The notes beneath the pieces are model-generated. The model was not told where the DNA came from and did not search any database. It saw only the letters and a list, made by a program, of their open reading frames with translations. From Escherichia coli (GTDB lineage Bacteria; Pseudomonadota; Gammaproteobacteria; Enterobacterales; Enterobacteriaceae): DNA of 64,000 nucleotides. The position numbers and the translations under genes are program-made. The number at the start of each line of letters is the position of its first letter. The first letter of the stretch is position 1. The stretch is from NCBI RefSeq assembly GCF_003018115.1, contig NZ_CP027457.1. The stretch is one strand, 5' to 3'. Of the stretch, positions 1 to 44,205 are shown in pieces.

Positions 1-74
1 AGCTGCACCGCACCGACGCCAACGGTAATCGTATTAAACTGCGTTTCGCCACGATGCTGGCACGTAAAAAATGA
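1..74 (+). CDS. tehB: 3' end of tellurite-resistance methyltransferase TehB (partial, runs off window start)
   Basis: Open frame from window edge ending ...NGNRIKLRFATMLARKK-stop; position immediately upstream of ydcL as in K-12. Recalled from memory, not searched. Confidence 0.5.
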   Translation, partial: LHRTDANGNRIKLRFATMLARKK

Positions 75-377
75 CCCGGTAAGAACAAAGCGCGTGAAAA
101 TTCCCCACGCTGAGATGGTTTACTGTTCTTCTTTTCGGTAAGCATATTTTTTATCGAAGGGATGTGAAATTAATCACAGTAGTCGAAGTTTTTTAGCAGC
201 TTAACTTACTGAAATTTAACTACTGATGATTGACTTAGCCCCTTTTTCGGCATTGACGATGTCGTCTGAAAAGGGGCTGAAAAATTTATTTTCACCAACA
301 CTTTTTTTTGCCACAACACGAAGCGGCGCTTTTTGCTATAACTTAAAAAGTAATATAATCATCTCAGGAAACTATTC

Positions 378-1051
378 ATGCGTACCACATCATTTGCGAA
401 AGTTGCAGCTTTATGCGGCTTGTTGGCTCTGTCTGGTTGTGCCTCTAAAATCACCCAGCCAGATAAATATTCTGGTTTTTTAAACAATTACTCTGATTTA
501 AAAGAAACAACCTCGGCTACAGGTAAACCGGTTTTACGTTGGGTAGACCCGAGTTTTGATCAAAGCAAATATGACAGCATCGTCTGGAACCCAATCACTT
601 ATTATCCGGTACCGAAACCTTCGACCCAGGTAGGGCAGAAAGTTCTGGATAAAATTTTGAACTATACCAACACCGAAATGAAAGAAGCGATAGCGCAGCG
701 TAAACCACTGGTTACCACCGCTGGGCCGCGTAGTCTGATTTTCCGTGGGGCCATTACCGGTGTAGATACCAGCAAAGAAGGGCTGCAATTCTATGAAGTG
801 GTTCCTGTTGCATTAGTGGTTGCGGGGACGCAAATGAAATGGCTACAGGCCACCGTACCATGGATACTCGCCTCTATTTTGAAGGTGAGCTGATTGATGC
901 AGCGACTAATAAACCGGTTATCAAAGTCGTTCGTCAGGGCGAAGGTAAAGACCTGAATAACGAAAGTACGCCAATGGCTTTCGAAAATATTAAACAAGTT
1001 ATTGATGACATGGCGACCGATGCCACCATGTTTGACGTTAACAAAAAGTAG
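378..1051 (+). pseudogene. ydcL: Lipoprotein YdcL, frameshifted (two overlapping ORFs 378..893 and 839..1051 in different frames)
   Basis: N-terminal signal peptide plus lipobox (LALSGC); both ORFs read as one protein family, joined near ...GTQMK / MATGHRTMD; the shift falls in an A-run (caaatgaaatgg) around 830-840. Confidence 0.6.
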
Positions 1052-1059
1052 TTCCAGAC

Positions 1060-1086
1060 GCGCCATCGTTAGATGGCGCTTTTTAT
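1060..1086 (+). terminator. Rho-independent terminator downstream of ydcL
   Basis: Stem gcgccatc / gatggcgc with a 4-nt loop followed by TTTTTAT. Confidence 0.55.
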
Positions 1087-1347
1087 CCGGTGCGCCGTAA
1101 AACCCCATCCTTCAGGGCGGGGATATAAGGCGCGGTTTTCCACCTGACCAGGTGTTTGCTGTTGTTCAATGTATTGGCGGATGACGGATATTGGCGCACC
1201 TCCGCAGCTACTGGCAAAATAGCCAGGACTCCACAAAACGCCTTTGTAGTAATACCTGACTGCAATATCTGGTCGATCTCGTCGCAGTAACCTACCCGAT
1301 ACGCCTTTGAGGCTGTTTACCAGACTGGATATCGCCAGTTTGGGAGG

Positions 1348-1575
1348 TTAGTTAATTAACAAATGGACGTGATCTGGTTCGCCATCCATTTCAACCAGTT
1401 CAGCTTCAAAATAAGCACATACATTTGAAAAGTAAGTGTGTAGTTTTTCTGTCGCGTCATGGTCAAAAATCTGGCGTCGGTATCTGGTGACAAAGACCAG
1501 GTGAACATGCATCAGGAAAACACAATGCCTTCCACGCCGGATATCGGTTTCTTTTTTCACAGACCAAAGTATCAT
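1348..1575 (-). pseudogene. insP: IS200/IS605-family TnpA (HUH transposase), C-terminally truncated
   Basis: 75 aa with HVHLVFVTRYRRQIF and EPDHVHLLI motifs typical of the TnpA N-terminal half; ends before the catalytic Tyr region. Confidence 0.6.
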
Positions 1576-1582
1576 TTGACCT

Positions 1583-2791
1583 GTGAAACGATTACAGGCA
1601 TTTAAATTCCAGTTAAGACCAGGTGGTCAACAGAAGTGTGAAATGAGGCGCTTCGCAGGCGCATGTCGTTTCGTTTTCAATCGTGCTCTGGCACGTCAGA
1701 ATGAGAATCATGAGGCCGGTAATAAATACATCCCTTACGGGAAAATGGCTTCCTGGCTGGTTGAGTGGAAAAATGCCACTGAAACGCAATGGCTTAAAGA
1801 TTCTCCCTCACAGCCATTGCAACAGTCACTGAAAGACCTTGAGCGGGCTTACAAAAACTTCTTCCGGAAGCGGGCTGCTTTTCCCCGATTCAAAAAGCGG
1901 GGACAGAATGATGCATTCCGCTACCCGCAGGGCGTTAAGCTCGATCAGGAAAACAGCCGTATTTTTCTGCCGAAACTGGGCTGGATGCGCTACCGGAATA
2001 GCCGTCAGGTCACGGGTGTTGTGAAAAATGTCACTGTCAGCCAGTCCTGCGGTAAGTGGTACATCAGTATTCAGACAGAAAGTGAAGTATCAACTCCGGT
2101 TCACCCTTCAGCATCAATGATCGGGCTGGATGCTGGCGTGGCTAAACTCGCCACGCTGTCAGATGGCACAGTCTTTGAGCCTGTAAACAGTTTTCAGAAA
2201 AACCAGAAGACGCTGGCGAGACTTCAGCGACAGTTAAGCCGCAAGGTCAAATTCAGCAACAACTGGCAGAAGCAGAAACGCAAAATACAGCGACTGCATT
2301 CCTGTATCGCAAATATCCGCAGGGACTACCTTCACAAAGTCACAACGGCCGTCAGCAAAAACCACGCAATGATAGTCATTGAGGATTTGAAGGTCAGCAA
2401 CATGTCAAAGTCAGCAGCGGGTACGGTCAGCCAGCCGGGGCGCAATGTCCGGGCAAAATCAGGTTTAAACCGTTCGATACTGGATCAGGGCTGGTATGAA
2501 ATGCGCCGCCAGCTTGAGTACAAGCAGCTCTGGCGTGGCGGTCAGGTGCTTGCTGTTCCGCCAGCGTATACAAGCCAGCGTTGCGCGTACTGTGGTCATA
2601 CAGCGAAAGAGAACCGCCTGTCACAAAGTAAATTCAGATGCCATGTATGTGGATATACAGCGAACGCCGATGTAAATGGCGCTCGTAACATTTTAGCGGC
2701 GGGGCACGCCGTTCTTGCCTGTGGAGAGATGGTGCAGTCAGGCCGCCCGTTGAAGCAGGAACCCACCGAAATGATTCAGGCGACAGCCTGA
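1583..2791 (+). CDS. insQ: IS609 TnpB (OrfB, RuvC-like RNA-guided nuclease family)
   Basis: 402-aa ORF from a GTG start; N-terminal AFKFQLRP motif and C-terminal Cys-rich zinc finger (CAYCGH...CHVCGY). K-12 annotation would start at the internal Met at 1643 (382 aa). Confidence 0.8.
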
Positions 2792-2830: not shown

Positions 2831-4006
2831 TCAATATCGGTTTCTGTCAGCGATTAAATTCAACACCACGTAACAAACGCCTCCGGCAATTAATCCCCAG
2901 AACGCTGAACCAATCCCGACCAGCGTTAATCCACTTGCCGTTACCAGAAATGCCACCACCGCCGCGTCGCGCTCACGCTCATTATGCAGCGCCTGATACA
3001 AACTGCCGCCAATGGTACTTAACAGCGCCAGACCTGCCAGCATCTGGATCCAACTTACGGGCAGGGCAGCCATCATCCCGGTAATGGCACTACCAAACAG
3101 ACCTGCGAGCAAATAGAAAATGCCTGCAACGGCAGCGGCCAGCCAACGTTGATCTTTATCCGGATGCGCTTCCGGGCTTTGGCAAATAGCTGCGGTGATT
3201 GCCGCAATACCGACGGAATAAACGCCGAAAGGGGAAAAAACCAGTGCCAGCAATCCAGTAAATACAATTAATGGCGAAACAGGAGCCGAATATCCGGCTG
3301 CTTTCATTGCTGCGATACCCGGTGCGTTTTGCGATGCCATCGTCACCAGAAAAAGGGGGAGTGCAACGCTCAGGCTGTGAGCAAACGAAAAATCAGGGGT
3401 AATATAAGTGGGGAGAACGGGTTTAAAGACAACATCAGTTGTGACAACGTCACCTTGCGCGATAACGATCACGATCCCAATAATCATCGCGGCAATTACC
3501 GCATAGCGCGGCGCAACGGCCTTGGTTGCCAGCCATACCAGCAACATACTTCCACACAACGTAAATTGACAGTCCAGACTGGCAAACGCCTGTAAACCAA
3601 AGCGTAATAAAATCCCGGCAAGCATTGCCGCCGCAAGCGAGTGCGGAATAATGCGCATCAGACGAGCAAAGAGTCCCGTTATGCCGCAGAGGACTATTAA
3701 CGCGTTGGTGACAATAAAAACGCCGATGGCTTCGTTAAGTGTTAGTCCCTGCAATCCGGTGACCAACAAAGCCGCGCCAGGCGTTGACCATGCGGTGAGA
3801 ACAGGTACGCGATACCATAATGTCAGAGTCAGCGTACTGACGCCCATTGCCAGCCCCAGCGCCGTCATCCAGCCAGAGATTTGTGCAGTGGAGGCTCCGG
3901 CGACAATCGCTGCTTGCCAGATTATTGCCGCTGAACTGGCGTAGCCAATTAATACCGCCAGAAACCCCGCCAGTAGCGTGGGTGGAGGAACAGAAAACAG
4001 ACGCAT
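2831..4006 (-). CDS. ydcO: BenE-family inner membrane transporter YdcO
   Basis: Highly hydrophobic multi-pass protein; start set to ATG at 4006 (MRLFSVPPPT..., 391 aa) with GAGGTG Shine-Dalgarno; the track ORF extends upstream to 4129. Confidence 0.8.
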   Translation of the reverse strand: MRLFSVPPPTLLAGFLAVLIGYASSAAIIWQAAIVAGASTAQISGWMTALGLAMGVSTLTLTLWYRVPVLTAWSTPGAALLVTGLQGLTLNEAIGVFIVTNALIVLCGITGLFARLMRIIPHSLAAAMLAGILLRFGLQAFASLDCQFTLCGSMLLVWLATKAVAPRYAVIAAMIIGIVIVIAQGDVVTTDVVFKPVLPTYITPDFSFAHSLSVALPLFLVTMASQNAPGIAAMKAAGYSAPVSPLIVFTGLLALVFSPFGVYSVGIAAITAAICQSPEAHPDKDQRWLAAAVAGIFYLLAGLFGSAITGMMAALPVSWIQMLAGLALLSTIGGSLYQALHNERERDAAVVAFLVTASGLTLVGIGSAFWGLIAGGVCYVVLNLIADRNRY

Positions 4007-4097
4007 AGTCACCTCGTGCGTTATAGCGTACAGGCACCGTAGCATTTGTCCGTTATAACGCACAAGTGATAAACTTCCGTTTTGCCGGAGGAGTCGC

Positions 4098-4634
4098 ATG
4101 GAAAATCTCGCTCGCTTTTTATCCACCACACTTAAACAACTACGTCAGCAGCGCGGCTGGAGTCTTTCGCGACTGGCAGAAGCGACGGGCGTTTCTAAAG
4201 CAATGTTAGGACAGATTGAGCGTAATGAGTCCAGCCCGACGGTCGCGACATTATGGAAAATTGCCACTGGGTTGAACGTGCCCTTTTCGACATTTATTTC
4301 TCCGCCACAGTCCGCTACGCCTTCAGTTTATGATCCACAACAGCAGGCGATGGTGATCACTTCGCTGTTTCCTTATGATCCACAACTCTGCTTTGAACAC
4401 TTCTCGATTCAGATGGCACCCGGTGCAATAAGCGAATCGACGCCCCATGAGAAGGGGGTAATCGAACATGTCGTCGTCATTGATGGACAACTTGATCTGT
4501 GCGTTGATGGTGAATGGCAGAGCCTTAATTGTGGGGAAGGCGCTCGATTTGCTGCAGACGTCACGCATATCTATCGTAATGGTGGGGAGCAAATCGTACA
4601 TTTTCATTCCCTCATCCATTACCCGCGCAGTTAA
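4098..4634 (+). CDS. ydcN: HTH (XRE-type)/cupin-domain transcriptional regulator YdcN
   Basis: 178-aa ORF; N-terminal HTH (LSRLAEATGVSKAMLGQIERNESSP); divergent from ydcO. Confidence 0.8.
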   Translation: MENLARFLSTTLKQLRQQRGWSLSRLAEATGVSKAMLGQIERNESSPTVATLWKIATGLNVPFSTFISPPQSATPSVYDPQQQAMVITSLFPYDPQLCFEHFSIQMAPGAISESTPHEKGVIEHVVVIDGQLDLCVDGEWQSLNCGEGARFAADVTHIYRNGGEQIVHFHSLIHYPRS

Positions 4635-4706: not shown

Positions 4707-6668
4707 GTGACCGTATCTTCTCATCGACTTGAACTGTTAAGCCCGGCACGCGATGCCGCCATTGCCCGCGAAGCTATTTTGCACGGTGCCGATGCTGTTT
4801 ATATCGGCGGCCCTGGTTTTGGTGCCCGTCATAATGCCAGTAATAGCCTGAAAGATATTGCCGAGCTGGTGCCGTTTGCCCATCGTTATGGTGCAAAAAT
4901 TTTCGTCACGCTTAACACCATTTTGCATGATGATGAGCTGGAACCCGCGCAACGGCTGATTACTGACCTCTACCAGACCGGTGTCGATGCGCTGATTGTT
5001 CAGGATATGGGGATTCTGGAACTTGATATTCCGCCGATTGAACTGCACGCCAGTACGCAGTGCGACATTCGTACAGTAGAAAAAGCGAAGTTCCTCTCTG
5101 ATGTTGGCTTCACGCAGATTGTGCTGGCGCGAGAGCTGAATCTTGAGCAGATCCGCGCGATTCACCAGGCCACGGACGCGACCATTGAATTCTTTATTCA
5201 TGGGGCACTGTGCGTGGCCTATTCGGGTCAGTGCTACATTTCTCATGCGCAAACAGGGCGTAGCGCCAACCGTGGCGATTGCTCGCAGGCGTGCCGTTTG
5301 CCATACACATTGAAAGACGATCAGGGGCGGGTGGTTTCCTATGAAAAACATCTGCTGTCGATGAAAGATAACGATCAAACTGCCAACCTCGGCGCGCTGA
5401 TTGATGCTGGTGTACGCTCCTTCAAGATTGAAGGGCGTTACAAAGATATGAGCTACGTGAAGAATATCACCGCCCATTATCGCCAGATGCTGGATGCCAT
5501 TATTGAAGAACGTGGCGATCTGACGCGCGCTTCATCAGGTCGTACTGAACATTTCTTTGTTCCATCGACGGAAAAGACTTTCCATCGTGGTAGCACAGAT
5601 TATTTTGTGAATGCCCGTAAAGGCGATATTGGCGCGTTCGATTCGCCGAAATTTATCGGCCTGCCGGTGGGTGAAGTATTGAAAGTGGCGAAAGATCATC
5701 TCGATGTTGCCGTTACCGAGCCACTGGCAAATGGCGATGGCCTGAACGTGTTGATTAAACGTGAAGTCGTCGGTTTTCGTGCCAATACGGTCGAGAAAAC
5801 CGGAGAAAATCAGTACCGCGTCTGGCCCAATGAAATGCCAGCAGATTTGCACAAAATTCGCCCGCATCACCCACTAAACCGTAATCTTGATCATAACTGG
5901 CAGCAGGCACTGACAAAAACCTCCAGCGAACGTCGGGTGGCGGTAGACATTGAACTGGGCGGCTGGCAGGAACAACTGATTCTGACCCTCACCAGTGAAG
6001 AGGGGGTCAGCATCACGCATACGCTGGATGGGCAGTTCGACGAAGCCAATAACGCCGAAAAAGCAATGAACAATCTGAAGGATGGTCTGGCAAAACTGGG
6101 GCAAACCATCTATTACGCCCGCGATGTGCAAATTAATTTGCCGGGGGCGCTGTTTGTACCAAACAGTCTGTTAAACCAGTTCCGCCGCGAAGCCGCCGAC
6201 ATGCTGGATGCTGCACGTCTTGCCAGTTACCAGCGCGGCAGCCGTAAACCGGTTGCTGATCCTGCGCCGGTTTATCCGCAAACGCATCTGAGTTTCCTCG
6301 CGAACGTTTACAACCAGAAAGCGCGTGAATTTTATCATCGCTATGGTGTGCAGCTGATTGACGCGGCGTATGAGGCACATGAAGAGAAGGGCGAAGTCCC
6401 GGTGATGATCACCAAGCATTGTCTGCGCTTTGCCTTTAATCTGTGCCCGAAACAGGCGAAAGGCAATATCAAAAGCTGGAAGGCGACGCCAATGCAACTG
6501 GTTAACGGCGATGAAGTATTAACGCTAAAGTTTGATTGCCGCCCATGCGAGATGCACGTCATTGGCAAAATCAAAAATCACATACTGAAAATGCCGTTAC
6601 CGGGAAGCGTAGTGGCATCCGTAAGTCCGGATGAGCTGCTGAAAACATTGCCGAAGCGAAAAGGGTAA
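4707..6668 (+). CDS. ydcP: Peptidase U32-family protein YdcP/RlhA
   Basis: Long conserved ORF; start assigned to the second GTG (653 aa); track start 4665 is also GTG. Confidence 0.8.
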   Translation: MTVSSHRLELLSPARDAAIAREAILHGADAVYIGGPGFGARHNASNSLKDIAELVPFAHRYGAKIFVTLNTILHDDELEPAQRLITDLYQTGVDALIVQDMGILELDIPPIELHASTQCDIRTVEKAKFLSDVGFTQIVLARELNLEQIRAIHQATDATIEFFIHGALCVAYSGQCYISHAQTGRSANRGDCSQACRLPYTLKDDQGRVVSYEKHLLSMKDNDQTANLGALIDAGVRSFKIEGRYKDMSYVKNITAHYRQMLDAIIEERGDLTRASSGRTEHFFVPSTEKTFHRGSTDYFVNARKGDIGAFDSPKFIGLPVGEVLKVAKDHLDVAVTEPLANGDGLNVLIKREVVGFRANTVEKTGENQYRVWPNEMPADLHKIRPHHPLNRNLDHNWQQALTKTSSERRVAVDIELGGWQEQLILTLTSEEGVSITHTLDGQFDEANNAEKAMNNLKDGLAKLGQTIYYARDVQINLPGALFVPNSLLNQFRREAADMLDAARLASYQRGSRKPVADPAPVYPQTHLSFLANVYNQKAREFYHRYGVQLIDAAYEAHEEKGEVPVMITKHCLRFAFNLCPKQAKGNIKSWKATPMQLVNGDEVLTLKFDCRPCEMHVIGKIKNHILKMPLPGSVVASVSPDELLKTLPKRKG

Positions 6669-7928: not shown

Positions 7929-9335
7929 ATGAAAAAATATCAGCAGCTTGCAGAACAATTACGCGAGCAGATTGCGTCTGGTATCTGGCAATCCGGCGAT
8001 CGTTTGCCTTCGTTGCGTGACCAGGTGGCGCTTTCTGGCATGAGCTTTATGACTGTCAGCCATGCCTATCAGTTGCTCGAAAGTCAGGGACATATTATCG
8101 CGCGACCGCAGTCGGGTTATTACGTTGCGCCACAGGCAATAAAAATGCCGAAAGCGCCAGTCATTCCAGTCACTCGAGATGAAGCAGTCGATATCAACAC
8201 CTATATTTTTGATATGTTGCAGGCCAGTCGCGATCCGTCGGTAGTTCCGTTTGCCTCGGCCTTTCCCGACCCGCGACTTTTCCCCCTCCAACAACTAAAC
8301 CGCTCGCTGGCGCAGGTAAGCAAAACCGCCACGGCGATGAGCGTGATTGAAAACTTGCCGCCAGGAAACGCAGAACTGCGTCAGGCTATTGCCCGTCGCT
8401 ATGCCTTACAGGGCATCACCATTTCTCCTGATGAAATTGTCATTACTGCCGGGGCGTTAGAGGCATTAAACCTCAGTTTGCAAGCGGTAACTGAACCGGG
8501 CGATTGGGTGATAGTAGAGAATCCTTGTTTCTACGGCGCGTTGCAGGCGCTGGAGCGGCTACGGCTGAAGGCGTTATCGGTGGCGACGGATGTTAAAGAA
8601 GGGATCGATCTTCAGGCGCTGGAACTGGCGTTGCAGGAGTATCCGGTGAAAGCGTGCTGGCTGATGACTAATAGCCAGAATCCACTCGGATTTACCTTAA
8701 CGCCGCAAAAAAAAGCACAACTGGTGGCGTTGCTCAATCAGTACAACGTAGCGCTGATTGAAGATGACGTTTACAGCGAACTTTATTTTGGACGGGAAAA
8801 ACCGCTGCCTGCGAAAGCGTGGGATCGCCACGATGGCGTTTTGCATTGCTCTTCGTTTTCGAAATGTCTGGTGCCTGGTTTTCGTATTGGTTGGGTCGCC
8901 GCCGGAAAACATGCACGTAAAATTCAACGATTGCAGTTGATGAGTACGCTTTCCACCAGCTCACCGATGCAGCTTGCGCTGGTAGATTACCTTTCCACGC
9001 GCCGATACGACGCCCATCTTCGTCGCCTGCGTCGCCAGCTTGCGGAACGTAAACAACGTGCCTGGCAGGCACTGCTGCGTTATCTGCCTGCGGAAGTGAA
9101 AATTCATCATAATGACAGCGGCTATTTTCTCTGGCTGGAGCTCCCCGAACCGTTAGATGCCGGCGAATTAAGCCTGGCGGCACTGACGCATCATATCAGT
9201 ATTGCGCCGGGTAAAATGTTTTCTACCGGTGAAAACTGGTCACGTTTTTTTCGTTTTAATACCGCGTGGCAGTGGGGAGAACGTGAAGAACAGGCGGTAA
9301 AACAATTAGGCAAACTTATTCAAGAACGGCTGTAA
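7929..9335 (+). CDS. ydcR: MocR/GntR-family regulator with aminotransferase-like domain YdcR
   Basis: 468-aa ORF; N-terminal GntR HTH followed by a PLP-fold domain containing a SFSK motif. Confidence 0.85.
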   Translation: MKKYQQLAEQLREQIASGIWQSGDRLPSLRDQVALSGMSFMTVSHAYQLLESQGHIIARPQSGYYVAPQAIKMPKAPVIPVTRDEAVDINTYIFDMLQASRDPSVVPFASAFPDPRLFPLQQLNRSLAQVSKTATAMSVIENLPPGNAELRQAIARRYALQGITISPDEIVITAGALEALNLSLQAVTEPGDWVIVENPCFYGALQALERLRLKALSVATDVKEGIDLQALELALQEYPVKACWLMTNSQNPLGFTLTPQKKAQLVALLNQYNVALIEDDVYSELYFGREKPLPAKAWDRHDGVLHCSSFSKCLVPGFRIGWVAAGKHARKIQRLQLMSTLSTSSPMQLALVDYLSTRRYDAHLRRLRRQLAERKQRAWQALLRYLPAEVKIHHNDSGYFLWLELPEPLDAGELSLAALTHHISIAPGKMFSTGENWSRFFRFNTAWQWGEREEQAVKQLGKLIQERL

Positions 9336-9579
9336 TAGCGTTTAATTTAATTCCTCTTAGATTGGGTAATATGAATTTCGAATAGCAGTCATATTTCCTA
9401 ACTCCTTGACTATACTCCAGAAGATAACCTTACAGACGGCATAATGCGCGGTAGCTCACAACCTGATTAAATTTTCTCAGGGGCGAAGGTGTGCCTGCAA
9501 GCCGCCGTCTATGGTTAAACAAGGAGATATTTTTACGGCACGGCGGCTGAACAATTAATTACGACAGGAGTAAGACCTT

Positions 9580-10725: not shown

Positions 10726-10742
10726 CTTCGCTGGGGTGCTTT

Positions 10743-11756: not shown

Positions 11757-12698
11757 ATGGCGATGAACGTATTGCAATCACCTTCACGTCCAGGTCTGGG
11801 TAAGGTGTCCGGTTTCTTCTGGCGGAATCCGGGGCTGGGGCTGTTTTTGCTGCTGCTTGGCCCGCTAATGTGGTTTGGCATTGTCTATTTCGGCTCGCTG
11901 CTAACGCTGTTATGGCAGGGCTTTTATACCTTTGACGATTTCACCATGTCGGTAACGCCGGAACTGACGCTGGCGAACATCCGTGCGCTGTTTAATCCGG
12001 CGAATTACGACATCATTCTCCGCACGCTGACTATGGCTGTGGCAGTCACTATCGCCAGCGCCATTCTGGCTTTTCCAATGGCGTGGTATATGGCGCGCTA
12101 TACCAGCGGGAAAATGAAAGCGTTTTTTTATATTGCGGTAATGTTGCCGATGTGGGCGAGCTACATTGTTAAAGCCTATGCCTGGACGTTATTGCTGGCA
12201 AAAGATGGCGTGGCTCAGTGGTTTTTACAACATCTTGGGCTGGAACCACTGCTGACAGCGTTCCTTACATTACCTGCGGTGGGCGGCAATACGCTGTCAA
12301 CTTCCGGGCTGGGGCGCTTTCTGGTGTTTCTCTATATCTGGCTGCCGTTCATGATCCTGCCCGTGCAGGCGGCGCTTGAGCGTTTGCCGCCGTCATTGTT
12401 GCAGGCGTCAGCTGATCTCGGCGCACGTCCACGACAAACCTTTCGCTATGTGGTGCTGCCGCTGGCGATCCCGGGTATTGCCGCTGGCTCTATCTTTACC
12501 TTCTCACTCACACTGGGCGATTTTATCGTCCCGCAGCTGGTTGGCCCGCCAGGATATTTTATCGGCAATATGGTTTATTCCCAGCAGGGGGCGATTGGCA
12601 ATATGCCGATGGCGGCGGCATTCACCCTGGTGCCGATTGTTCTTATCGCACTGTACCTGGCGTTCGTGAAACGTCTGGGAGCGTTCGATGCACTCTGA
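11757..12698 (+). CDS. ydcU: ABC transporter permease YdcU
   Basis: 313-aa hydrophobic ORF; start abuts the ydcT stop. Confidence 0.85.
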
Positions 12699-13482: not shown

Positions 13483-13503
13483 CCACTGATACAGGAAAAT
13501 GCT

Positions 13504-14928: not shown

Positions 14929-14967
14929 GGATAATATTGCAGATCGTAAGAGTATGAGATGATCTTG

Positions 14968-15001
14968 CGTACTGTCAGAGCACTGATTTCTCTGACAGTA
15001 C
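14968..15001. terminator. Perfect 13-bp inverted repeat between convergent patD and yncL (bidirectional terminator candidate)
   Basis: cgtactgtcagag - cactgatttc - ctctgacagtacg; no clear T-tract, so terminator function is inferred. Confidence 0.45.
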
Positions 15002-18853: not shown

Positions 18854-18858
18854 AGTAA

Positions 18859-25078: not shown

Positions 25079-25897
25079 AAGGATAAATGGCGTTCTCTGT
25101 ATTTATTCGCAATTATCTGTAGGACAAATATGGAGAGCTTGATGAGTCAGAGCTAAAACAGCAATTGATTAATAAACATGTTGATTTATTCAAGAAAATG
25201 GATGTATTTTAAATGTTGATTCTTAATATAACCTAATCAATAGATTATCAAGTGAGAGCTACACATTATTGGAGGGGCAGGGGAAAACACCATTTTGGGA
25301 ACAATGCATCAGGTACTCTTACCACTGAAGCAAGATCATCCGGCACCAGGTGGTGGTGCAGTGCTTTGGAAATGGTCCCCTCGGGGGAGTTGTCATTATT
25401 TTCTATGCTATTTGCTTATTATATTCATCAGGTGAATTTAATAAATTCCTAATTTGAAATATCCACTATTAAGCTAGTGTTTAACGACGTTAAGATGGCA
25501 ATGTGCAGATCATGTTATCAGGGTGGGGCGGTAGCGTATATTCCTTATACAAACCATCATTCATTTCAATGATTGTTATTGAATTATTTATTGTTGTGAA
25601 TAAAAAGACATTATGAATATTGGTTTGACTTTGCATATCAGGTTTTTTATTACTCGCTGTAATGTACGAGCCTGTCGTGAATAACGTCGAGAACCCATCC
25701 GTTGCGTTTGTGATTATTTTGTTGACTAAACAGACACCCGTTTCTCTGAAGTAAAATCCCAGACTAAATCATCACATAACCATGACATTTTTCTGATATT
25801 CCCCGGTAACGCCAGATGTCGACTCGCTTATCTCATCCGCCCGACATGTTGTACATGCAATATGTGCGGATTATTATTCATTTTCACGGAGGTTGCT

Positions 25898-28006
25898 ATG
25901 TCAACCGGATTACGTTTCACACTGGAAGTGGACGGCCTGCCACCGGACGCTTTTGCGGTGGTTTCCTTTCATCTCACCCAGTCACTCTCTTCACTCTTTT
26001 CCCTCGATCTCTCCCTGGTCAGCCAGCAGTTTCTCTCCCTTGAATTTGCGCAGGTGCTGGACAAAATGGCCTACCTGACAATATGGCAGGGTGATGATGT
26101 ACAGCGCCGGGTGAAAGGTGTGGTGACCTGGTTTGAACTGGGGGAGAACGACAAAAACCAGATGCTGTACAGCATGAAGGTGCACCCGCCGCTGTGGCGT
26201 GCCGGTCTGCGCCAGAACTTCCGTATCTTCCAGAACGAGGACATCAAAAGCATCCTCGGCACGATATTGCAGGAAAACGGGGTGACCGAGTGGAGTCCGC
26301 TGTTCAGTGAACCGCATCCTTCCCGTGAGTTTTGTGTCCAGTACGGTGAGACTGATTACGATTTCCTGTGCCGGATGGCGGCGGAGGAAGGCATCTTCTT
26401 TTATGAGGAGCATGCTTACAAAAGTACCGACCAGAGCCTGGTGCTGTGCGACACGGTCCGCCATCTGCCCGAATCTTTTGAAATCCCCTGGAACCCGAAC
26501 CCCCGTACCGAGGTGAGCACCCTCTGCATCAGCCAGTTTCGCTACAGCGCACAAATCCGCCCTTCTTCCGTGGTGACCAAAGACTACACCTTTAAACGCC
26601 CCGGCTGGGCAGGACGTTTTGATCAGGAAGGCCAGCACCAGGATTACCAGCGCACGCAGTATGAGGTGTATGACTACCCCGGACGTTTCAAGGGCGCCCA
26701 CGGGCAGAACTTTGCCCGCTGGCAGATGGAGGGCTGGCGAAACAATGCAGAAACCGCGCGGGGAATGAGTCGCTCGCCGGAGATATGGCCGGGACGGCGA
26801 ATTGTGCTGACGGGGCATCCGCAGGCGAACCTGAACCGGGAATGGCAGGTGGTGGCGAGCGATCTTCACGGCGAACAGCCGCAGGCGGTACCGGGACGCA
26901 GGGGTTCAGGCACCACGCTGGATAACCATTTTGCGGTAATACCGGCAGACCGGACATGGCGACCACAGCCGTTGCTGAAACCGCTGGTGGATGGCCCGCA
27001 GAGCGCCGTCGTGACGGGACCGGCAGGCGAGGAAATCTTCTGCGACGAACATGGTCGCGTGCGGGTGAAATTTAACTGGGACCGCTATAACCCGTCAAAC
27101 CAGGACAGTTCATGCTGGATCCGTGTGGCACAGGCGTGGGCAGGCACCGGCTTTGGCAACCTGGCGATACCGCGTGTGGGTCAGGAGGTGATTGTGGACT
27201 TCCTCAACGGCGATCCGGACCAGCCGATTATTATGGGGCGTACCTACCACCAGGAAAACCGCACACCCGGCAGCCTGCCGGGGACGAAGACGCAGATGAC
27301 CATTCGTTCGAAAACCTATAAGGGCAGCGGGTTTAATGAACTGAAGTTTGACGATGCGACAGGGAAAGAACAGGTCTACATCCACGCGCAGAAGAACATG
27401 AACACCGAGGTGCTGAATAACCGCACCACGGATGTGATAAACAACCATGCTGAGACCATTGGCAACAATCAGATGATTGCGGTTACCAACAATCAGATAC
27501 AGACGGTGGGCGTTAACCAGATAGAGACGGTGGGCAGTAACCAGATCATTAACGTGGGTTCTGTTCAGGTGGAAACGATTGGACTTGTTCGTGCGCTGAC
27601 CGTGGGCGTGGCGTACCAGACGACGGTAGGTGGCATTATGAACACTTCGGTGGCTCTGATGCAGTCCTCGCAGATCGGTTTGCATAAATCGTTGAGGGTC
27701 GGGCTGGGTTATGACGTCAAAGTCGGAAATAACGTTACCTTCACCGTTGGTAAAACGAAAAAGGATGATACCGGGCAGACCGCGATTTACTCCGCCGGTG
27801 AGCATCTGGAGCTCTGCTGTGGTAAGGCAAAGCTGGTGCTGACAAAGGACGGTCAAATTTTTCTCAACGGCACAAAAATTCATTTGCAGGGTAAGGAGCA
27901 GGTTAATGGTGACTCACTGTTGATTAACTGGAACTGTGCAGCCTCGAAATCCCCACCGAAGACCCCTGATGAAAAGCAGGATACGCCGGATATGAGAGAG
28001 TACTGA
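25898..28006 (+). CDS. vgrG: Type VI secretion spike protein VgrG (Rhs-element vgr gene)
   Basis: Start at ATG 25898 (MSTGLRFTLEVDG...) after GGAGG; gp27/gp5-like regions and C-terminal Val-Gly repeats (IQTVGVNQIETVGSNQIINVGSVQVETIG). Confidence 0.85.
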   Translation: MSTGLRFTLEVDGLPPDAFAVVSFHLTQSLSSLFSLDLSLVSQQFLSLEFAQVLDKMAYLTIWQGDDVQRRVKGVVTWFELGENDKNQMLYSMKVHPPLWRAGLRQNFRIFQNEDIKSILGTILQENGVTEWSPLFSEPHPSREFCVQYGETDYDFLCRMAAEEGIFFYEEHAYKSTDQSLVLCDTVRHLPESFEIPWNPNPRTEVSTLCISQFRYSAQIRPSSVVTKDYTFKRPGWAGRFDQEGQHQDYQRTQYEVYDYPGRFKGAHGQNFARWQMEGWRNNAETARGMSRSPEIWPGRRIVLTGHPQANLNREWQVVASDLHGEQPQAVPGRRGSGTTLDNHFAVIPADRTWRPQPLLKPLVDGPQSAVVTGPAGEEIFCDEHGRVRVKFNWDRYNPSNQDSSCWIRVAQAWAGTGFGNLAIPRVGQEVIVDFLNGDPDQPIIMGRTYHQENRTPGSLPGTKTQMTIRSKTYKGSGFNELKFDDATGKEQVYIHAQKNMNTEVLNNRTTDVINNHAETIGNNQMIAVTNNQIQTVGVNQIETVGSNQIINVGSVQVETIGLVRALTVGVAYQTTVGGIMNTSVALMQSSQIGLHKSLRVGLGYDVKVGNNVTFTVGKTKKDDTGQTAIYSAGEHLELCCGKAKLVLTKDGQIFLNGTKIHLQGKEQVNGDSLLINWNCAASKSPPKTPDEKQDTPDMREY

Positions 28007-28073: not shown

Positions 28074-31000
28074 ATGAGCGGAAAACCAGCGGCGCGTCAG
28101 GGAGATATGACTCAGTATGGCGGTCCCATTGTCCAGGGTTCGGCAGGTGTAAGAATTGGCGCGCCAACTGGCGTGGCGTGCTCGGTGTGTCCGGGCGGGA
28201 TGACCTCGGGCAACCCGGTGAACCCGCTGCTCGGTGCAAAAGTACAGCCCGGCGAGACGGACCTTGCGCTGCCCGGCCCGCTGCCGTTCATTCTCTCCCG
28301 CACCTACAGCAGCTACCGGACCCGGACGCCTGCACCGGTGGGCGTTTTCGGCCCCGGCTGGAAAGCGCCTTCTGATATCCGCTTACAGCTACGTGATGAC
28401 GGACTGATACTCAACGACAACGGCGGGCGGAGCATTCACTTTGAGCCGCTGCTGCCAGGGGAGGCGGTGTACAGCCGCAGCGAGTCCCTGTGGCTGGTGC
28501 GCGGTGGTAAGGCAGCACAGCCGGACGGCCATACGCTGGCACGGCTGTGGGCGTCGCTGCCGCCGGATATCCGGTTAAGCCCGCATCTTTACCTGGCGAC
28601 CAACAGCGCACAGGGGCCGTGGTGGATACTGGGGTGGTCTGAGCGGGTGCCGGGTGCTGAGGACGTACTGCCAGCGCCGCTGCCGCCGTACCGGGTGCTT
28701 ACCGGGATGGCGGACCGCTTCGGGCGGACGCTGACGTACCGGCGTGACGGACGGTGCCGGGCGTGAGTTCCGTCTGGTGCTGACCACACAGGCGCAGCGG
28801 GCGGAAGAGGCCCGGCAGCAGGCGGTCGTCGCCGGAGCAAAACGACCGGACATTCCTGATTCACTGCCGGAGAGCACAGAGTACGGCCCCGACAGGGGTA
28901 TCCGTCTTTCAGCGGTGTGGCTGATGCACGACCCGGCATACCCGGAGAATCTGCCCGGTGCGCCACTGGCGCGGTACACGTATACGGAAGCCGGTGAACT
29001 GCTGGCGGTATATGACCGCAGCAATACGCAGGTGCGTGCTTTCACGTATGACCCGCAGCACCCGGGCCGGATGGTGGCGCACCGTTACGCGGGAAGGCCG
29101 GAGATGCGCTACCGCTACGACGATACGGGGCGGGTGGTGGAGCAACTGAACCCGGCAGGGTTAAGCTACCGCTATCTTTATGAGCAGGACCGCATCACCG
29201 TCACCGACAGCCTGAACCGGCGTGAGGTGCTGCATACAGAAGGCGGGGCCGGGCTGAAGCGGGTGGTGAAAAAAGAACTGGCGGACGGCAGCGTCACGCG
29301 CAGCGGGTATGACCCGGTGGGGCGGCTTACGGCGCAGACGGACGCGGCGGGACGGCGGACAGAGTACGGTCTGAATGTGGTGTCAGTCGACATCACGGAT
29401 ATCACCACGCCGGACGGGCGGGAGACGAAATTTTACTATAACGACGGGAACCAGTTAACGGCAGTGGTGTACCCGGACGGGCTGGAGAGCAGCCGGGCAT
29501 ATGATGAGCTGGACAGGCTGGTAACGGAGACATCGCGCAGCGGGGAGACAGTACGCTACCGCTATGATGATGCGCACAGTGAATTACCGGCCACAACAAC
29601 AGATGCGACGGGCAGCACCCGGCAGATGACGTGGAGCCGCTACGGTCAGTTGCTGGCGTTCACCGACTGCTCGGGCTACCAGACCCGCTATGAATACGAC
29701 CGCTTCGGCCAGATGACGGCGGTCCACCGCGAGGAAGGCATCAGCCTTTACCGCCGCTATGACAACCGTGGCCGGTTAATCTCGGTGAAAGACGCACAGG
29801 GCCATGAAACGCGGTATGAATACAACGCCGCAGGCGACCTGACTGCCCTCATTACCCCGGACGGCAACCGGAGCGAGACACAGTACGATGCGTGGGGAAA
29901 GGCGGTCAGCACCACGCAGGGCGGGCTGACGCGCAGTATGGAATACGACCTTGCCGGACGCATCACCACGCTGACCAACGAGAACGGCAGCCGGAGTGAG
30001 TTTACCTACGATGCGCTTGACCGGCTGGTACAGCAGCGCGGCTTTGACGGGCGGACGCAACGTTACCACTATGACCTGACCGGAAAACTCACGCAGAGTG
30101 AAGATGAGGGGCTTGTCACCCTCTGGCACTACGACGAATCGGACCGCCTCACTCACCGCACGGTGAACGGCGAACCGGCAGAGCAGTGGCAGTATGATGG
30201 CCACGGCTGGCTGACAGAAATCAGCCACCTGAGCGAAGGCCATCAGGTGGCGGTGCATTACGGTTATGATGATAAGGGCCGCCTGGCCGGGGAGCGCCAG
30301 ACGGTGCATAACCCGGAGACGGGGGAACTGCTGTGGCAGCATGAGACAGAGCACGCATACAACGAACAGGGGCTGGCAAACCGCGTCACGCCGGACGGCC
30401 TGCCGCGGGTGGAGTGGCTGACCTACGGCAGCGGTTATCTTGCGGGGATGAAGCTGGGCGGGACACCTCTGGTCGAGTATACGCGGGACCGCCTGCACCG
30501 GGAAACTGCGCGCAGCTTTGGTAACGGAACGGGCAGTACAGCCGCATATGAACTGACCAGCACTTACACCCCCGCAGGCCGGTTACAGAGCCAGCACCTG
30601 AACAGCCTGATGTATGACCGTGACTACGTGTGGAATGACAACGGCGACCTGGTGCGCATCAGCGGCCCGCGACAGACGCGGGAATACGGCTACAGCGCCA
30701 CGGGCAGGCTGGAGAGCGTGCGCACCCTCGCACCGGACCTGGACATCCGCATCCCGTATGCCACCGACCCGGCGGGAAACCGGCTGCCGGACCCGGAGCT
30801 ACACCCGGACAGCACGCTCACGGCGTGGCCGGATAACCGCATCGCGGAGGATGCGCACTATGTTTACCACTATGATGAATACGGCAGGCTGACGGAGAAG
30901 ACGGACCGCATCCCGGCGGGTGTGATACGGACGGACGACGAGCGGACCCACCACTACCACTACGACAGCCAGCACCGTCTGGTGTTCTACACGCGGATAC

Positions 31001-32250
31001 AGCATGGCGAGCCGCAGGTGGAGAGCCGCTACCTCTGTGACCCGCTGGGACGGCGAATGGCGAAACGGGTATGGCGGCGGGAGCGTGACCTGACAGGATG
31101 GATGTCGCTGTCGCGTAAACCGGAGGTGACGTGGTATGGCTGGGACGGAGACAGGCTGACGACGGTACAGACAGACCAGACCCGTATCCAGACGGTCTAC
31201 CAGCCGGGGAGCTTCACGCCGCTCATCCGTATCGAGACAGAGAACGGCGAACGGGAGAAAATGCAGCGCCGCAGCCTAGCGGAGAAGTTACAGTCGGAAG
31301 GGAGTGAGGACGGTCACGGTGTGGTGTTCCCGGCTGAGCTGGTGAGGATGCTGGACAGGCTGGAGGAAGAAATCCGGGCAGGCCGCGTGAGCAGTGAAAG
31401 CCGGGCGTGGCTTGCGCAGTGCGGGCTGACGGTGGAGCAACTGGCCAGACAGGTGGAGCCGGAATACACACCGGCGCGAAAAGTTCATCTTTATCACTGC
31501 GACCACCGGGGCCTGCCGCTGGCGCTCATCAGCGAAGACGGCAATACGGCGTGGCGCGGGGAGTATGATGAATGGGGCAACCAGCTTAATGAGGAGAACC
31601 CGCATCATGTGTATCAGCCATACCGCCTGCCGGGGCAGCAGTATGATGAGGAGTCGGGGCTGTACTATAACCGCAACCGGTACTATGATCCGTTGCAGGG
31701 GAGGTATATTACCCAGGATCCGATTGGGCCAGTGGGGGGGTGGAATCCCTATAGTTATGTGCTTAATAATCCAGCCCAGTTTATTGACCCAACAGGTTTA
31801 ACTCAAGAGGACAATTGGACCTATGGTGAGGTAGGTAATAGCTGTGTTACGAGTCAACGCGATTTTACTCCCCCGCCCGGACTTGCGGATATGAAAGCCA
31901 GCATTGGCGCTGCCTGCTCAAGAAACAATGCTTCCAGAAACTGCCACCCCGTAGATGGTAGTAATGCTTCTGCACCATCGGATAAAGCCGCATGGGAAAA
32001 TATTCAAAATGCGACAAATGGTAAAGATTTATCTGGTGGTGGAAATATGTTTTGTGTAGGAAATGAGGACTGTGCGGTTGTTCATAGCTGTCGTGAAATA
32101 GTTAATGCTCGACACCCGGCAGGACGAGTGCGTGAACGTGTAACTCCGTTAACAACGTCAGGAACAGCAACGCTCAATGGAACAACAGTTTACTTTTATA
32201 ATGATCCCCGGAATGGTAATTGTCCTGCTCACGAATATATTCCTCAATAA
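28074..32250 (+). pseudogene. rhsE: PAAR-Rhs polymorphic toxin, copy 1, split by a frameshift near 28740-28766 (ORFs 28074..28766 and 28744..32250)
   Basis: N-terminal PAAR-like region, YD-repeat core, DPxGL boundary. Relative to copy 2 about 38 nt (encoding ...[12 protein letters not shown]...) is missing, shifting the frame. Symbol by K-12 position only. Confidence 0.7.
31801..32250 (+). other. Rhs copy 1 C-terminal variable toxin domain (CT1), function unknown
   Basis: About 149 aa following DPTGL at 31786..31800; drop in GC content; Cys-rich; no motif recognised. Confidence 0.6.
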
Positions 32251-33121: not shown

Positions 33122-34410
33122 AGGGAAAGATCATCAGAAGTTCACTTTTTGTACTAAATAATTTGCATTTTATATTTAAAAATTGAGATATTCCTCATTA
33201 CCTGAAGCTGTTTTTTATTGCTTATACATGATCAAATACTCCTTACATAATTAAGGAGAACAAAATGGAACTTAAAAAATTGATGGAACATATTTCTATT
33301 ATCCCTGATTACAGACAAGCCTGGAAAGTGGAACATAAATTATCGGATATTCTACTGTTGACTATTTGTGCCGTTATTTCTGGTGCAGAAAGCTGGGAAG
33401 ATATAGAGGATTTTGGTGAAACACATCTCGATTTTTTGAAGCAATATGGTGATTTTGAAAATGGTATTCCTGTTCACGATACCATTGCCAGAGTTGTATC
33501 CTGTATCAGTCCTGCAAAATTTCACGAGTGCTTTATTAACTGGATGCGTGACTGCCATTCTTCAGATGATAAAGACGTCATTGCAATTGATGGAAAAACG
33601 CTCCGGCACTCTTATGACAAGAGTCGCCGCAGGGGAGCGATTCATGTCATTAGTGCGTTCTCAACAATGCACAGTCTGGTCATCGGACAGATCAGGACGG
33701 ATGAGAAATCTAATGAGATTACAGCTATCCCAGAACTTCTTAACATGCTGGATATTAAAGGAAAAATCATCACAACTGATGCGATGGGTTGCCAGAAAGA
33801 TATTGCAGAGAAGATACAAAAACAGGGAGGTGATTATTTATTCGCGGTAAAAGGAAACCAGGGGCGGCTAAATAAAGCCTTTGAGGAAAAATTTCCGCTG
33901 AAAGAATTAAATAATCCAGAGAATGACAGTTACGCAATTAGTGAAAAGAGTCACGGCAGAGAAGAAATCCGTCTTCATATTGTTTGCGATGTCCCTGATG
34001 AACTTATTGATTTCACGTTTGAATGGAAAGGGCTAAAGAAATTATGCGTGGCAGTCTCCTTTCGGTCCATAATAGCAGAACAAAAGAAAGAGCCAGAAAT
34101 GACGGTCAGATATTATATCAGTTCTGTTGATTTAACCGCAGAGAAGTTCGCCACAGCAATCCGAAACCACTGGCACGTGGAGAATAAGCTGCACTGGCGT
34201 CTGGACGTGGTAATGAATGAAGACGACTGCAAAATAAGAAGAGGAAATGCAGCAGAATTATTTTCAGGGATACGGCACATCGCTATTAATATTTTGACTA
34301 ATGATAAGGTATTCAAGGCAGGGTTAAGACGTAAGATGCGAAAAGCAGCCATGGACAGAAACTATCTGGCGTCAGTCCTTGCGGGGAGCGGGCTTTCGTA
34401 ATCTTGCCCT
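33122..34410 (+). mobile_element. H-repeat (H-rpt, ISAs1-family) element, copy 1
   Basis: About 1.29 kb unit bounded by imperfect inverted repeats AGGGAAAGAT ... ATCTTGCCCT; three near-identical copies in the window. Confidence 0.8.
33265..34401 (+). CDS. ISAs1-family transposase (H repeat-associated protein), copy 1
   Basis: 378-aa [31 protein letters not shown]...; DDE-type transposase family. Confidence 0.85.
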
Positions 34411-40582: not shown

Positions 40583-41870
40583 AGGGAAAGATCATCAGAA
40601 GTTCACTTTTTGTACTAAATAATTCGCATTTTATGTTTAAAAATTGAGATATTCCTCATTACCTGAAGCTGTTTTTATTGCTTATACATGATCAAATACT
40701 CCTTACATAATTAAGGAGAACAAAATGGAACTTAAAAAACTGATGAAACATATTTCTATTATCCCCGATTACAGACAAGCCAGGAAAGTAGAACATAAAT
40801 TGTCAGATATTCTACTGTTGACTATTTGTGCCGTTATTTCTGGTGCAGAAGGCTGGGAAGATATAGAGGATTTTGGGGAAACACATCTCGATTTTTTGAA
40901 GCAATATGGTGATTTTGAAAATGGCATTCCTGTTCACGATACCATTGCCAGAGTTGTATCCTGTATCAGTCCTGCAAAATTTCACGAGTGCTTTATTAAC
41001 TGGATGCGTGACTGCCATTCTTCAGATGATAAAGACTTCATTGCAATTGATGGAAAAACGCTCCGGCACTCTTATGACAAGAGTCGCCGCAGGGGAGCGA
41101 TTCATGTCATTAGTGCGTTCTCAACAATGCACAGTCTGGTCATCGGACAGATCAAGACGGATGAGAAATCTAATGAGATTACAGCTATCCCAGAACTTCT
41201 TAACATGCTGGATATTAAAGGAAAAATCATCACAACTGATGTGATGGGTTGCCAGAAAGATATTGCAGAGAAGATACAAAAACAGGGAGGTGATTATTTA
41301 TTCGCGGTAAAAGGAAACCAGGGGCGGCTAAATAAAGCCTTTGAGGAAAAATTTCCGCTGAAAGAATTAAATAATCCAGAGCATGACAGTTACGCAATCA
41401 GTGAAAAGAGTCACAGCAGAGAAGAAATCCGTCTTCATATTGTTTGCGATGTCCCTGATGAACTTATTGATTTCACGTTTGAATGGAAAGAGCTGAAGAA
41501 ATTATGCGTGGCAGTCTCCTTTCGGTCAATAATAGCAGAACAAAAGAAAGAGCCAGAAATGACGGTCAGATATTATATCAGTTCTGCTGATTTAACCGCA
41601 GGGAAGTTCGCCACAGCAATCCGAAGCCACTGGCACGTGGAGAATAAGCTGCACTGGCGTCTGGACGTGGTAATGAATGAAGACGACTGCAAAATAAGAA
41701 GAGGAAATGCAGCAGAATTATTTTCAGGGATACGGCACATTGCTATTAATATTTTGACGAATGATAAGGTATTCAAGGCAGGGTTAAGACGTAAGATGCG
41801 AAAAGCAGCCATGGACAGAAACTATCTGGCGTCAGTCCTTGTGGGGAGCGGGCTTTCGTAATCTTGCCCT
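40583..41870 (+). mobile_element. H-repeat (ISAs1-family) element, copy 2
   Basis: Same terminal sequences as copy 1. Confidence 0.8.
40725..41861 (+). CDS. ISAs1-family transposase (H repeat-associated protein), copy 2
   Basis: 378-aa ORF nearly identical to copy 1 with a few substitutions. Confidence 0.85.
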
Positions 41871-42917: not shown

Positions 42918-44205
42918 AGGGAAAGATCATCAGAAGTTCACTCTTTGTACTAAATAATTCGCATTTTATGTTTAAAAATTGAGATATTCCTCATTACCTG
43001 AAGCTGTTTTTATTGCTTATACATGATCAAATACTCCTTACATAATTAAGGAGAACAAAATGGAACTTAAAAAACTGATGGAACATATTTCTATTATCCC
43101 CGATTACAGACAAGCCTGGAAAGTAGAACATAAATTGTCAGATATTCTACTGTTGACTATTTGTGCCGTCATTTCTGGTGCAGAGGGTTGGGAAGATATA
43201 GAGGATTTTGGTGAAACACATCTCGATTTTTTGAAGCAATATGGTGATTTTGAAAATGGTATTCCTGTTCACGATACCATTGCCAGAGTTGTATCCTGTA
43301 TCAGTCCTGCAAAATTTCACGAGTGCTTTATTAACTGGATGCGTGACTGCCATTCTTCAGATGATAAAGACGTCATTGCAATTGATGGAAAAACGCTCCG
43401 GCACTCTTATGACAAGAGTCGCCGCAGGGGAGCGATTCATGTCATTAGTGCGTTCTCAACAATGCACAGTCTGGTCATCGGACAGATCAAGACGGATGAG
43501 AAATCTAATGAGATTACAGCTATCCCAGAACTTCTTAACATGCTGGATATTAAAGGAAAAATCATCACAACTGATGCGATGGGTTGCCAGAAAGATATTG
43601 CAGAGAAGATACAAAAACAGGGAGGTGATTATTTATTCGCGGTAAAAGGAAACCAGGGGCGGCTAAATAAAGCCTTTGAGGAAAAATTTCCGCTGAAAGA
43701 ATTAAATAATCCAGAGCATGACAGTTACGCAATCAGTGAAAAGAGTCACAGCAGAGAAGAAATCCGTCTTCATATTGTTTGCGATGTCCCTGATGAACTT
43801 ATTGATTTCACGTTTGAATGGAAAGGGCTGAAGAAATTATGCGTGGCAGTCTCCTTTCGGTCCATAATAGCAGAACAAAAGAAAGAGCCAAAAATGACGG
43901 TCAGATATTATATCAGTTCTGCTGATTTAACCGCAGAGAAGTTCGCCACAGCAATCCGAAACCACTGGCACGTGGAGAATAAGCTGCACTGGCGTCTGGA
44001 CGTGGTAGTGAATGAAGACGACTGCAAAATAAGAAGAGGAAATGCAGCAGAATTATTTTCAGGGATACGGCACATTGCTATTAATATTTTGACGAATGAT
44101 AAGGTATTCAAGGCAGGGTTAAGACGTAAGATGCGAAAAGCAGCCATGGACAGAAACTATCTGGCGTCAGTCCTTGCGGGGAGCGGGCTTTCGTAATCTT
44201 GCCCT
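42918..44205 (+). mobile_element. H-repeat (ISAs1-family) element, copy 3
   Basis: Same terminal sequences; right flank is the native pptA upstream region. Confidence 0.8.
43060..44196 (+). CDS. ydcC: ISAs1-family transposase (H repeat-associated protein), copy 3
   Basis: 378-aa ORF; symbol by position next to pptA as in K-12. Confidence 0.8.

What the first reader, a model, noticed from the sequence alone, without database searches (positions are those of the whole stretch)
820..900. ydcL lipoprotein gene carries a single-base frameshift
Two overlapping ORFs in different frames together span the expected lipoprotein. The junction (caaatgaaatgg) looks like the loss of one A from an A-run, which could be a genuine inactivation or a homopolymer sequencing error.
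Basis: seen in the sequence. Interest (0 to 1): 0.35.

Follow-up and report, generated by a model that had tools for sequence, protein, structure and literature searches.

The report
ydcL broken by 5-bp duplication
The E. coli lipoprotein gene ydcL in this window is knocked out by a five-base tandem duplication (AAATG copied twice), not by a lost A, and this is an ordinary, recent pseudogene seen in only this one genome.

Summary
Two ORFs (378..893 and 839..1051, frames offset by +2) together cover ydcL, a DUF3313 lipoprotein gene.

The proposed mechanism is wrong. The lesion is a perfect 5-bp tandem duplication, AAATG-AAATG (832-841). Deleting one copy makes the gene base-for-base identical to the intact 669-bp ydcL of E. 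coli F9792. None of about 5,300 complete E. coli genomes carries the duplication or the 6-base-longer form that a "lost A" would require.

The product keeps residues 1-153, including the signal peptide and lipobox. It gains 18 wrong residues, stops at TGA 891-893, and loses 69 residues, the last third of the conserved domain.

A homopolymer read error cannot produce this change. The assembly is otherwise clean (3 indels in about 48 kb versus its closest relative), so the mutation is probably real. The exact truncated protein is on record on a single 5.0-Mb chromosome, so the allele is private and recent.

ydcL knockouts are viable, and other lineages have inactivated the gene independently, for example by an IS1203 insertion in strain 95JB1. 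Ordinary finding, low interest.

The parts
378..1051 (+). ydcL pseudogene (674 bp; intact allele is 669 bp, 222 aa, DUF3313 lipoprotein)
   Evidence: Identical to F9792 ydcL once one AAATG copy is removed.
378..440 (+). Signal peptide and lipobox (L18-S19-G20-C21, Cys21 codon at 438-440), intact
   Evidence: Read directly from the sequence and translation. Ala at +2 implies outer-membrane sorting under the established +2 rule (own knowledge).
832..841 (+). Perfect tandem duplication (AAATG)x2; every reference has one copy. This is the frameshifting lesion, located just after codon Met153.
378..893 (+). ORF1: truncated product of 171 aa, made of native residues 1-153 plus an aberrant tail KWLQATVPWILASILKVS. 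Premature stop TGA at 891-893.
   Evidence: Pfam DUF3313 positions 1-126 of 187.
839..1051 (+). ORF2: 70-aa C-terminal remnant (native residues 153-222), starting at the ATG of the second repeat copy. It has no signal peptide and only a weak purine-rich GGGGA (825-829) upstream.
1060..1085 (+). Intrinsic terminator of ydcL (8-bp GC-rich stem GCGCCATC/GATGGCGC, then a T-run). The gene is monocistronic, so no polar effect is expected.
302..309 (+). T8 run about 70 nt upstream of the ydcL ATG. It is T7 in 5,394 of 5,396 complete genomes. Second rare change at this locus; effect unknown.
258..258 (+). Private T-to-G substitution in the apical loop of the tehB-ydcL intergenic hairpin (stem about 235-280)

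Best explanation
In the recent ancestry of this one strain, a spontaneous 5-bp tandem duplication (AAATG to AAATGAAATG) arose just after codon 153 of ydcL. It is the kind of event made by replication slippage or template misalignment. It shifts the reading frame by +2. Translation from the normal start then yields a lipoprotein precursor with an intact signal peptide and lipobox and 153 native residues, followed by 18 wrong residues and a premature TGA at 891-893. The last 69 residues, one third of the conserved DUF3313 domain, are lost. Shown here: the nature of the lesion, its absence from other genomes, and the truncation. Inferred: the fragment is exported and lipidated but cannot fold and is degraded, so the strain is effectively a ydcL null. 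The knockout is viable, so the allele can persist as a neutral or mildly deleterious pseudogene.
For: The lesion is a duplication. Removing any 5-base register within 832-841 gives a sequence 100% identical to the 669-bp ydcL of F9792 (alignment).

The allele is private. The best identity over the 80-bp junction is 75/80 in all 5,298 matching genomes. The exact 171-aa product is on record on one contig of 5,001,754 bp among about 15 billion proteins.

The event is recent. There is no other difference within the CDS from the closest relative.

The assembly is not indel-prone. There are 3 indels in about 48 kb of collinear sequence versus F9792, and one of them (47389) is the common allele.

A second slippage-type lesion lies in the same window. 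A 38-bp deletion between 10-bp direct repeats frameshifts an Rhs gene, and a homopolymer read error could not produce it.

The lost part is conserved. The 70-aa remnant alone scores 55 bits against Pfam DUF3313 positions 126-186 of 187.

Loss is tolerated. The Keio ydcL mutant is viable but thermosensitive at 47 C, and Mg2+ rescues it (PMC3112155). Independent natural knockouts exist: an IS1203 insertion in 95JB1 and other truncations (P0009, P0011) plus a C-terminal remnant in Shigella dysenteriae.
Against: No reads are available, so a consensus or assembly artefact cannot be formally excluded. The allele is supported by one assembly only. Two other private or rare changes lie within 575 bp (G258, and the T8 run at 302-309). 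They could hint at a locally weaker consensus, although window-specific changes run at about 1 per kb across the first 9 kb. The fate of the truncated protein was not tested.
Confidence: 0.85

Rival explanations
1. Sequencing or assembly artefact: the strain has intact ydcL and the extra AAATG was introduced during consensus calling or polishing.
For: The allele is seen in one assembly only. A rare homopolymer change (T8 versus T7) lies 530 bp upstream.
Against: A perfect 5-base tandem duplication in mixed sequence is not a typical platform error; those are mostly 1-2 base homopolymer changes (own knowledge). The assembly has only 3 indels in about 48 kb versus its closest relative, and one of these is the common natural allele.
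Confidence: 0.1
2. One reading: loss of one A from an A-run (ancestral CAAATGAAAATGG), either real or a homopolymer error.
For: Adding one base would also restore a single open frame.
Against: The implied ancestor would be 675 bp and encode two extra residues (K, M). No such allele exists among about 5,300 genomes, which all have CAAATGG. Removing 5 bases reproduces a real allele exactly.
Confidence: 0.01
3. Footprint of a mobile element: an element that makes 5-bp target-site duplications inserted at AAATG and later excised, leaving both copies of the target.
For: The duplication has no flanking microhomology beyond the unit itself (exactly 6 equivalent registers). ydcL is hit by an IS elsewhere (IS1203 in 95JB1).
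Against: No element remnant lies between the copies. Clean excision that keeps both target copies is not the usual outcome in E. coli, which lacks end-joining (own knowledge). The neighbouring IS609 belongs to the IS200/IS605 family, which makes no target duplications (own knowledge).
Confidence: 0.03
4. Functional recoding or split gene: the two ORFs still yield functional YdcL, either by ribosomal frameshifting or as two separately translated pieces.
For: The duplicated ATG (839-841) starts the downstream ORF in the native frame.
Against: The arrangement is not conserved in any other genome. No slippery site was seen in the overlap on reading the sequence. The C-terminal piece has no signal peptide, so it could not reach the envelope where the lipidated N-terminal piece goes (inference). 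The upstream Shine-Dalgarno-like sequence is weak.
Confidence: 0.01

Closest known systems
Intact ydcL of E. coli (WP_001261013.1; K-12 locus b1431; Pfam DUF3313, PF11769)
   Same: Same locus and synteny (tehAB - ydcL - IS609 remnant/insQ - ydcO). The DNA is identical to the F9792 allele apart from the duplication.
   Different: It carries 5 extra bases, so the product is truncated after residue 153 with an 18-residue aberrant tail.
Other natural ydcL pseudogenes (IS1203-interrupted ydcL in E. coli 95JB1/95NR1; truncated products P0009 of 130 aa and P0011 of 188 aa; 63-aa remnant in Shigella dysenteriae 1617)
   Same: The same gene is inactivated in wild strains. The 70-aa Met153-start ORF is called as a separate gene on 451 contigs.
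   Different: The mutational events and positions differ (IS insertion, other frameshifts). None shares the AAATG duplication.
Short tandem-duplication frameshifts made by strand slippage, the classic case being the lacI CTGG hotspot (own knowledge, Farabaugh et al. 1978)
   Same: Gain of one copy of a 4-5 bp unit gives a frameshift and a null allele. In principle it can revert by losing one copy.
   Different: At lacI the unit is already repeated three times in the wild type, which makes it a hotspot. Here the wild type has a single AAATG, so this is a one-off event rather than a hotspot.

Membership tests
DUF3313 (PF11769) lipoprotein family / ydcL orthologue | Significant match to the Pfam DUF3313 profile | tested here: met
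   The intact relative scores 213 bits over profile positions 1-186. Window ORF1 scores 144 bits (1-126) and ORF2 55 bits (126-186); the cut-off is 26.1.
DUF3313 (PF11769) lipoprotein family / ydcL orthologue | Orthologous position (tehB upstream; IS609 remnant and ydcO downstream) | tested here: met
Bacterial lipoprotein | N-terminal signal peptide ending in a lipobox [LVI][ASTVI][GAS]C | tested here: met
   MRTTSFAKVAALCGLLALSGC, with L-S-G-C at residues 18-21, read from the translation. No dedicated predictor was run.
Frameshift pseudogene | Intact single-frame orthologue in close relatives | tested here: met
   All 39 full-length rows listed span 736 bases and are annotated as ydcL. F9792, K-12, CFSAN004176, 1303 and C1 all encode the 222-aa protein.
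Frameshift pseudogene | Indel whose length is not a multiple of three, followed by a premature stop | tested here: met
   A +5 bp insertion at 832-841 and TGA at 891-893.
Homopolymer-run sequencing error | The length change is confined to a mononucleotide run | tested here: not met
   The inserted unit is AAATG. Each A3 run has the same length as in the reference.
Programmed ribosomal frameshift / recoding site | The two-frame arrangement is conserved among orthologues | tested here: not met
   None of 5,298 matching genomes shares it.
Phase-variable simple-sequence contingency locus | A multi-copy repeat tract whose copy number varies among strains | tested here: not met
   All other genomes have one copy and this one has two. 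Tandem Repeats Finder reports no array.

The most novel reading that the evidence does not exclude
Loss of YdcL is not neutral but repeatedly selected in some pathogenic E. coli and Shigella lineages. The independent hits would be this duplication, the IS1203 insertion in 95JB1, the other truncations (P0009, P0011) and the Shigella remnant, for instance because YdcL is an envelope-exposed target. A weaker version: the two-copy AAATG acts as a revertible off-switch, since loss of one copy restores the gene exactly.
Probability: 0.05. Interest if true: 0.3.

Novelty: already known. Interest (0 to 1): 0.08.

Why it matters
It matters little beyond annotation. The gene should be labelled a frameshifted pseudogene caused by a 5-bp tandem duplication, not a homopolymer error and not two genes. 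The strain can be treated as a natural ydcL null. That could be marginally useful to anyone studying this uncharacterised outer-membrane-vesicle lipoprotein, whose knockout is heat-sensitive. The correction also shows that "two frames, one gene" cannot be assigned a mechanism without a reference alignment.

Tried and rejected
1. The "lost A" model. I rebuilt the implied ancestor (675 bp...QMKMATG...). No genome has it, so I rejected it.

2. Homopolymer error. The inserted unit is AAATG, so I rejected it.

3. Tandem Repeats Finder found nothing at 700-1000. Two copies of a 5-mer fall below its score threshold, so this says nothing against the duplication.

4. The look-up of encoding contigs returned no record for the 171-aa product, whereas listing of cluster members found it on one contig. 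I took the second result as the answer.

5. A mutation hotspot at ydcL. Three private or rare changes fall within 575 bp (258, 302, 832). Polarising against three genomes showed that window-specific changes run at about 1 per kb across the first 9 kb and include three in ydcO. The cluster is therefore not specific to ydcL. Four of the six window-specific point substitutions outside the rlhA cluster are transversions, and the isolated SNPs versus F9792 are mostly non-synonymous. The sample is too small to interpret.

6. Literature lead. [quoted passage not shown] A work with that theme, listed in the references of PMC8767447, is titled on a 'ydcl' mutation. From my own knowledge that gene is ydcI, a LysR-type regulator, so this looks like an I/l name confusion and is probably not about the lipoprotein. 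I did not confirm that it is the work the first paper cites.

7. No relative with a solved structure (best E-value 0.36). I did not run large homology searches or structure prediction because the Pfam split already shows a conserved third of the domain is lost.

8. Aligning the Rhs junction to the window's own paralog failed because the sequences are too diverged. An intact Rhs gene from strain RM8352 resolved it.

Full report
**What is in the sequence**

Window 378..893 (+) is a 171-aa ORF and 839..1051 (+) is a 70-aa ORF. They overlap over 839-893, and their frames differ by +2.

The surrounding genes are the E. coli tehAB - ydcL - IS609 remnant (tnpA pseudogene, intact insQ/tnpB) - ydcO neighbourhood.

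**What the lesion is**

A 741-base query covering the gene matched 5,411 of 5,426 complete E. coli genomes. Every full-length row listed spans 736 record bases, so the window is 5 bases longer than the references, not 1 base shorter.

Direct alignment with F9792 and K-12 shows ...GACGC-----AAATGGCT... in both references against ...GACGCAAATGAAATGGCT... in the window. Deleting any 5-base register within 832-841 yields a 669-bp gene that is 100% identical to F9792 ydcL. The lesion is therefore a perfect tandem duplication of AAATG, placed just after the codon for Met153.

Over an 80-base probe centred on the junction, the best identity in all 5,298 matching genomes is 75/80, which is exactly the 5-base gap. 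So neither the duplication nor the hypothetical "A-containing" ancestor exists in the collection.

**Consequence for the protein**

Intact YdcL is 222 aa. It has a signal peptide ending in the lipobox L-S-G-C (Cys21) and one DUF3313 domain covering residues 30-213.

The window's product keeps residues 1-153 (Pfam profile positions 1-126 of 187). It then reads KWLQATVPWILASILKVS and stops at TGA 891-893, and 69 native residues are lost.

The lost part is a conserved piece of the domain: the 70-aa remnant alone scores 55 bits, E = 1e-14. It starts at the ATG of the second repeat copy. It has no signal peptide and only a weak GGGGA upstream, so it could not join an exported N-terminal fragment; this is inference.

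A strong intrinsic terminator at 1060-1085 ends the gene, so no polar effect is expected. No relative has a solved structure.

**Real mutation or artefact?**

Without reads this cannot be settled, but the evidence favours a real mutation.
- A 5-base duplication in mixed sequence is not a homopolymer error.
- Against its closest relative (the O169:H41 ETEC lineage including F9792, 99.9% identical over the first 25 kb), the window shows only three indels in about 48 kb of collinear sequence.
- Of those three, one is this duplication. One is a T7-to-T8 change at 302-309, which is rare and shared by only 2 of 5,396 genomes. One is an A3/A4 difference at 47389, where the window carries a widespread allele (over 2,000 genomes match the 81-bp probe at 99% or better).
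- The window also holds a second slippage-type lesion that a homopolymer read error could not produce. A 38-bp deletion between two 10-bp direct repeats (ACCGGCGTGA) frameshifts the first Rhs core gene.
- The exact 171-aa product is recorded on one 5,001,754-bp NCBI contig among about 15 billion proteins. With no further change inside the CDS, the allele is private and recent.

**Is the locus a hotspot?**

Within window 1-1840 the only three differences from F9792 are T258G, the T8 run and the duplication. T258G is absent from all 5,399 matching genomes and lies in the apical loop of a stable intergenic hairpin.

Polarising against F9792, K-12 and strain C1 showed that window-specific changes continue at about one per kb through ydcO, rlhA and ydcR, then stop entirely from 8752 to 25830. 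The ydcL changes are therefore part of a generally more diverged first 9 kb, not a ydcL-specific cluster.

The isolated SNPs are mostly non-synonymous, as expected for very recent change not yet filtered by selection. The dense clusters at 4910-6146 and 46335-48703 are mostly synonymous, as expected for recombination imports.

**What is known about YdcL**

YdcL is an uncharacterised lipoprotein.
- It was among the outer-membrane-vesicle proteins chosen for immunogenicity testing (PMC10673343).
- Its level rises about two-fold in a cysB mutant (PMC6761508).
- It appears in a list of candidate fitness genes from a uropathogenic E. coli systemic-infection transposon screen (PMC3855560).
- The Keio knockout is viable but fails to grow at 47 C unless Mg2+ is added (PMC3112155).

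One paper describes ydcL as a persister-related transcriptional regulator. A reference list elsewhere holds a paper on small, slow persisters titled with a 'ydcl' mutation. From my own knowledge that gene is ydcI, so the description probably reflects a name confusion. I did not confirm that this is the work the first paper cites.

Natural ydcL knockouts of other kinds exist. There is an IS1203 insertion in 95JB1, different truncations (P0009, 130 aa; P0011, 188 aa) and a 63-aa remnant in Shigella dysenteriae 1617. The 70-aa Met153-start ORF is called separately on 451 contigs.

**Verdict**

This is an ordinary, recent, strain-private frameshift pseudogene of a dispensable envelope lipoprotein, made by a 5-bp tandem duplication.

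The lesion in the deposited sequence is certainly a duplication. That it is biologically real has a probability of about 0.85. Interest is low. The only more interesting reading is selected, recurrent loss of YdcL or a revertible switch, and nothing found here supports it beyond the existence of a few independent knockouts.

Noticed in passing
window 28074-32250 (junction at 28738-28747): The first Rhs core gene after vgrG is split into two ORFs, 28074..28766 (230 aa) and 28744..32250 (1168 aa). Relative to an intact Rhs core gene (E. coli O121 RM8352), the window lacks 38 bp lying between two 10-bp direct repeats (ACCGGCGTGA), a classic slippage deletion that shifts the frame. No complete genome showed the same deletion. 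The comparator is a paralogous locus, not the orthologue.
   Followed up: partly
window 302-309: A T8 run about 70 nt upstream of the ydcL start codon. Of 5,396 complete E. coli genomes, 5,394 have T7 and only CFSAN004176 and 1303 share T8, on unrelated haplotypes. It could be a real slippage change in the promoter-upstream region or a homopolymer consensus error.
   Followed up: partly
window 258 (hairpin about 235-280): A private T-to-G substitution, absent from all 5,399 matching genomes. It lies in the apical loop of a very stable tehB-ydcL intergenic hairpin (-26 kcal/mol, z = -4.7).
   Followed up: partly
window 2831-4129 (-), ydcO: Three window-specific substitutions (A2906T, C3571A, T3892A), all transversions. 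Two are non-synonymous (G146C and T39S in the BenE-family transporter YdcO). No complete genome matches this 1.1-kb segment at 100%.
   Followed up: partly
window 1069-2791: An IS609 (IS200/IS605 family) remnant lies directly after the ydcL terminator. The tnpA on the minus strand is a pseudogene with an internal stop, while the 402-aa insQ/TnpB ORF (1583..2791) is intact, as in K-12 and F9792.
   Followed up: no
window 4910-6146 and 46335-48703: Dense SNP clusters relative to F9792, mostly synonymous in rlhA (21 SNPs in 1.2 kb) and across narI-narW-narH. They sit in otherwise near-identical sequence and look like recombination imports. By contrast, 8752-25830 has no window-specific change at all.
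   Followed up: partly
window 25862-29131: The window keeps a full-length vgrG (25862..28006, 714 aa) and about 2.5 kb of sequence (26608-29131) that F9792 lacks. In F9792, vgrG and the Rhs gene are annotated as truncated fragments abutting each other. Three ISAs1/ISEc1 transposase ORFs of 378 aa each (33265..34401, 40725..41861, 43060..44196) punctuate the Rhs region.
   Followed up: no
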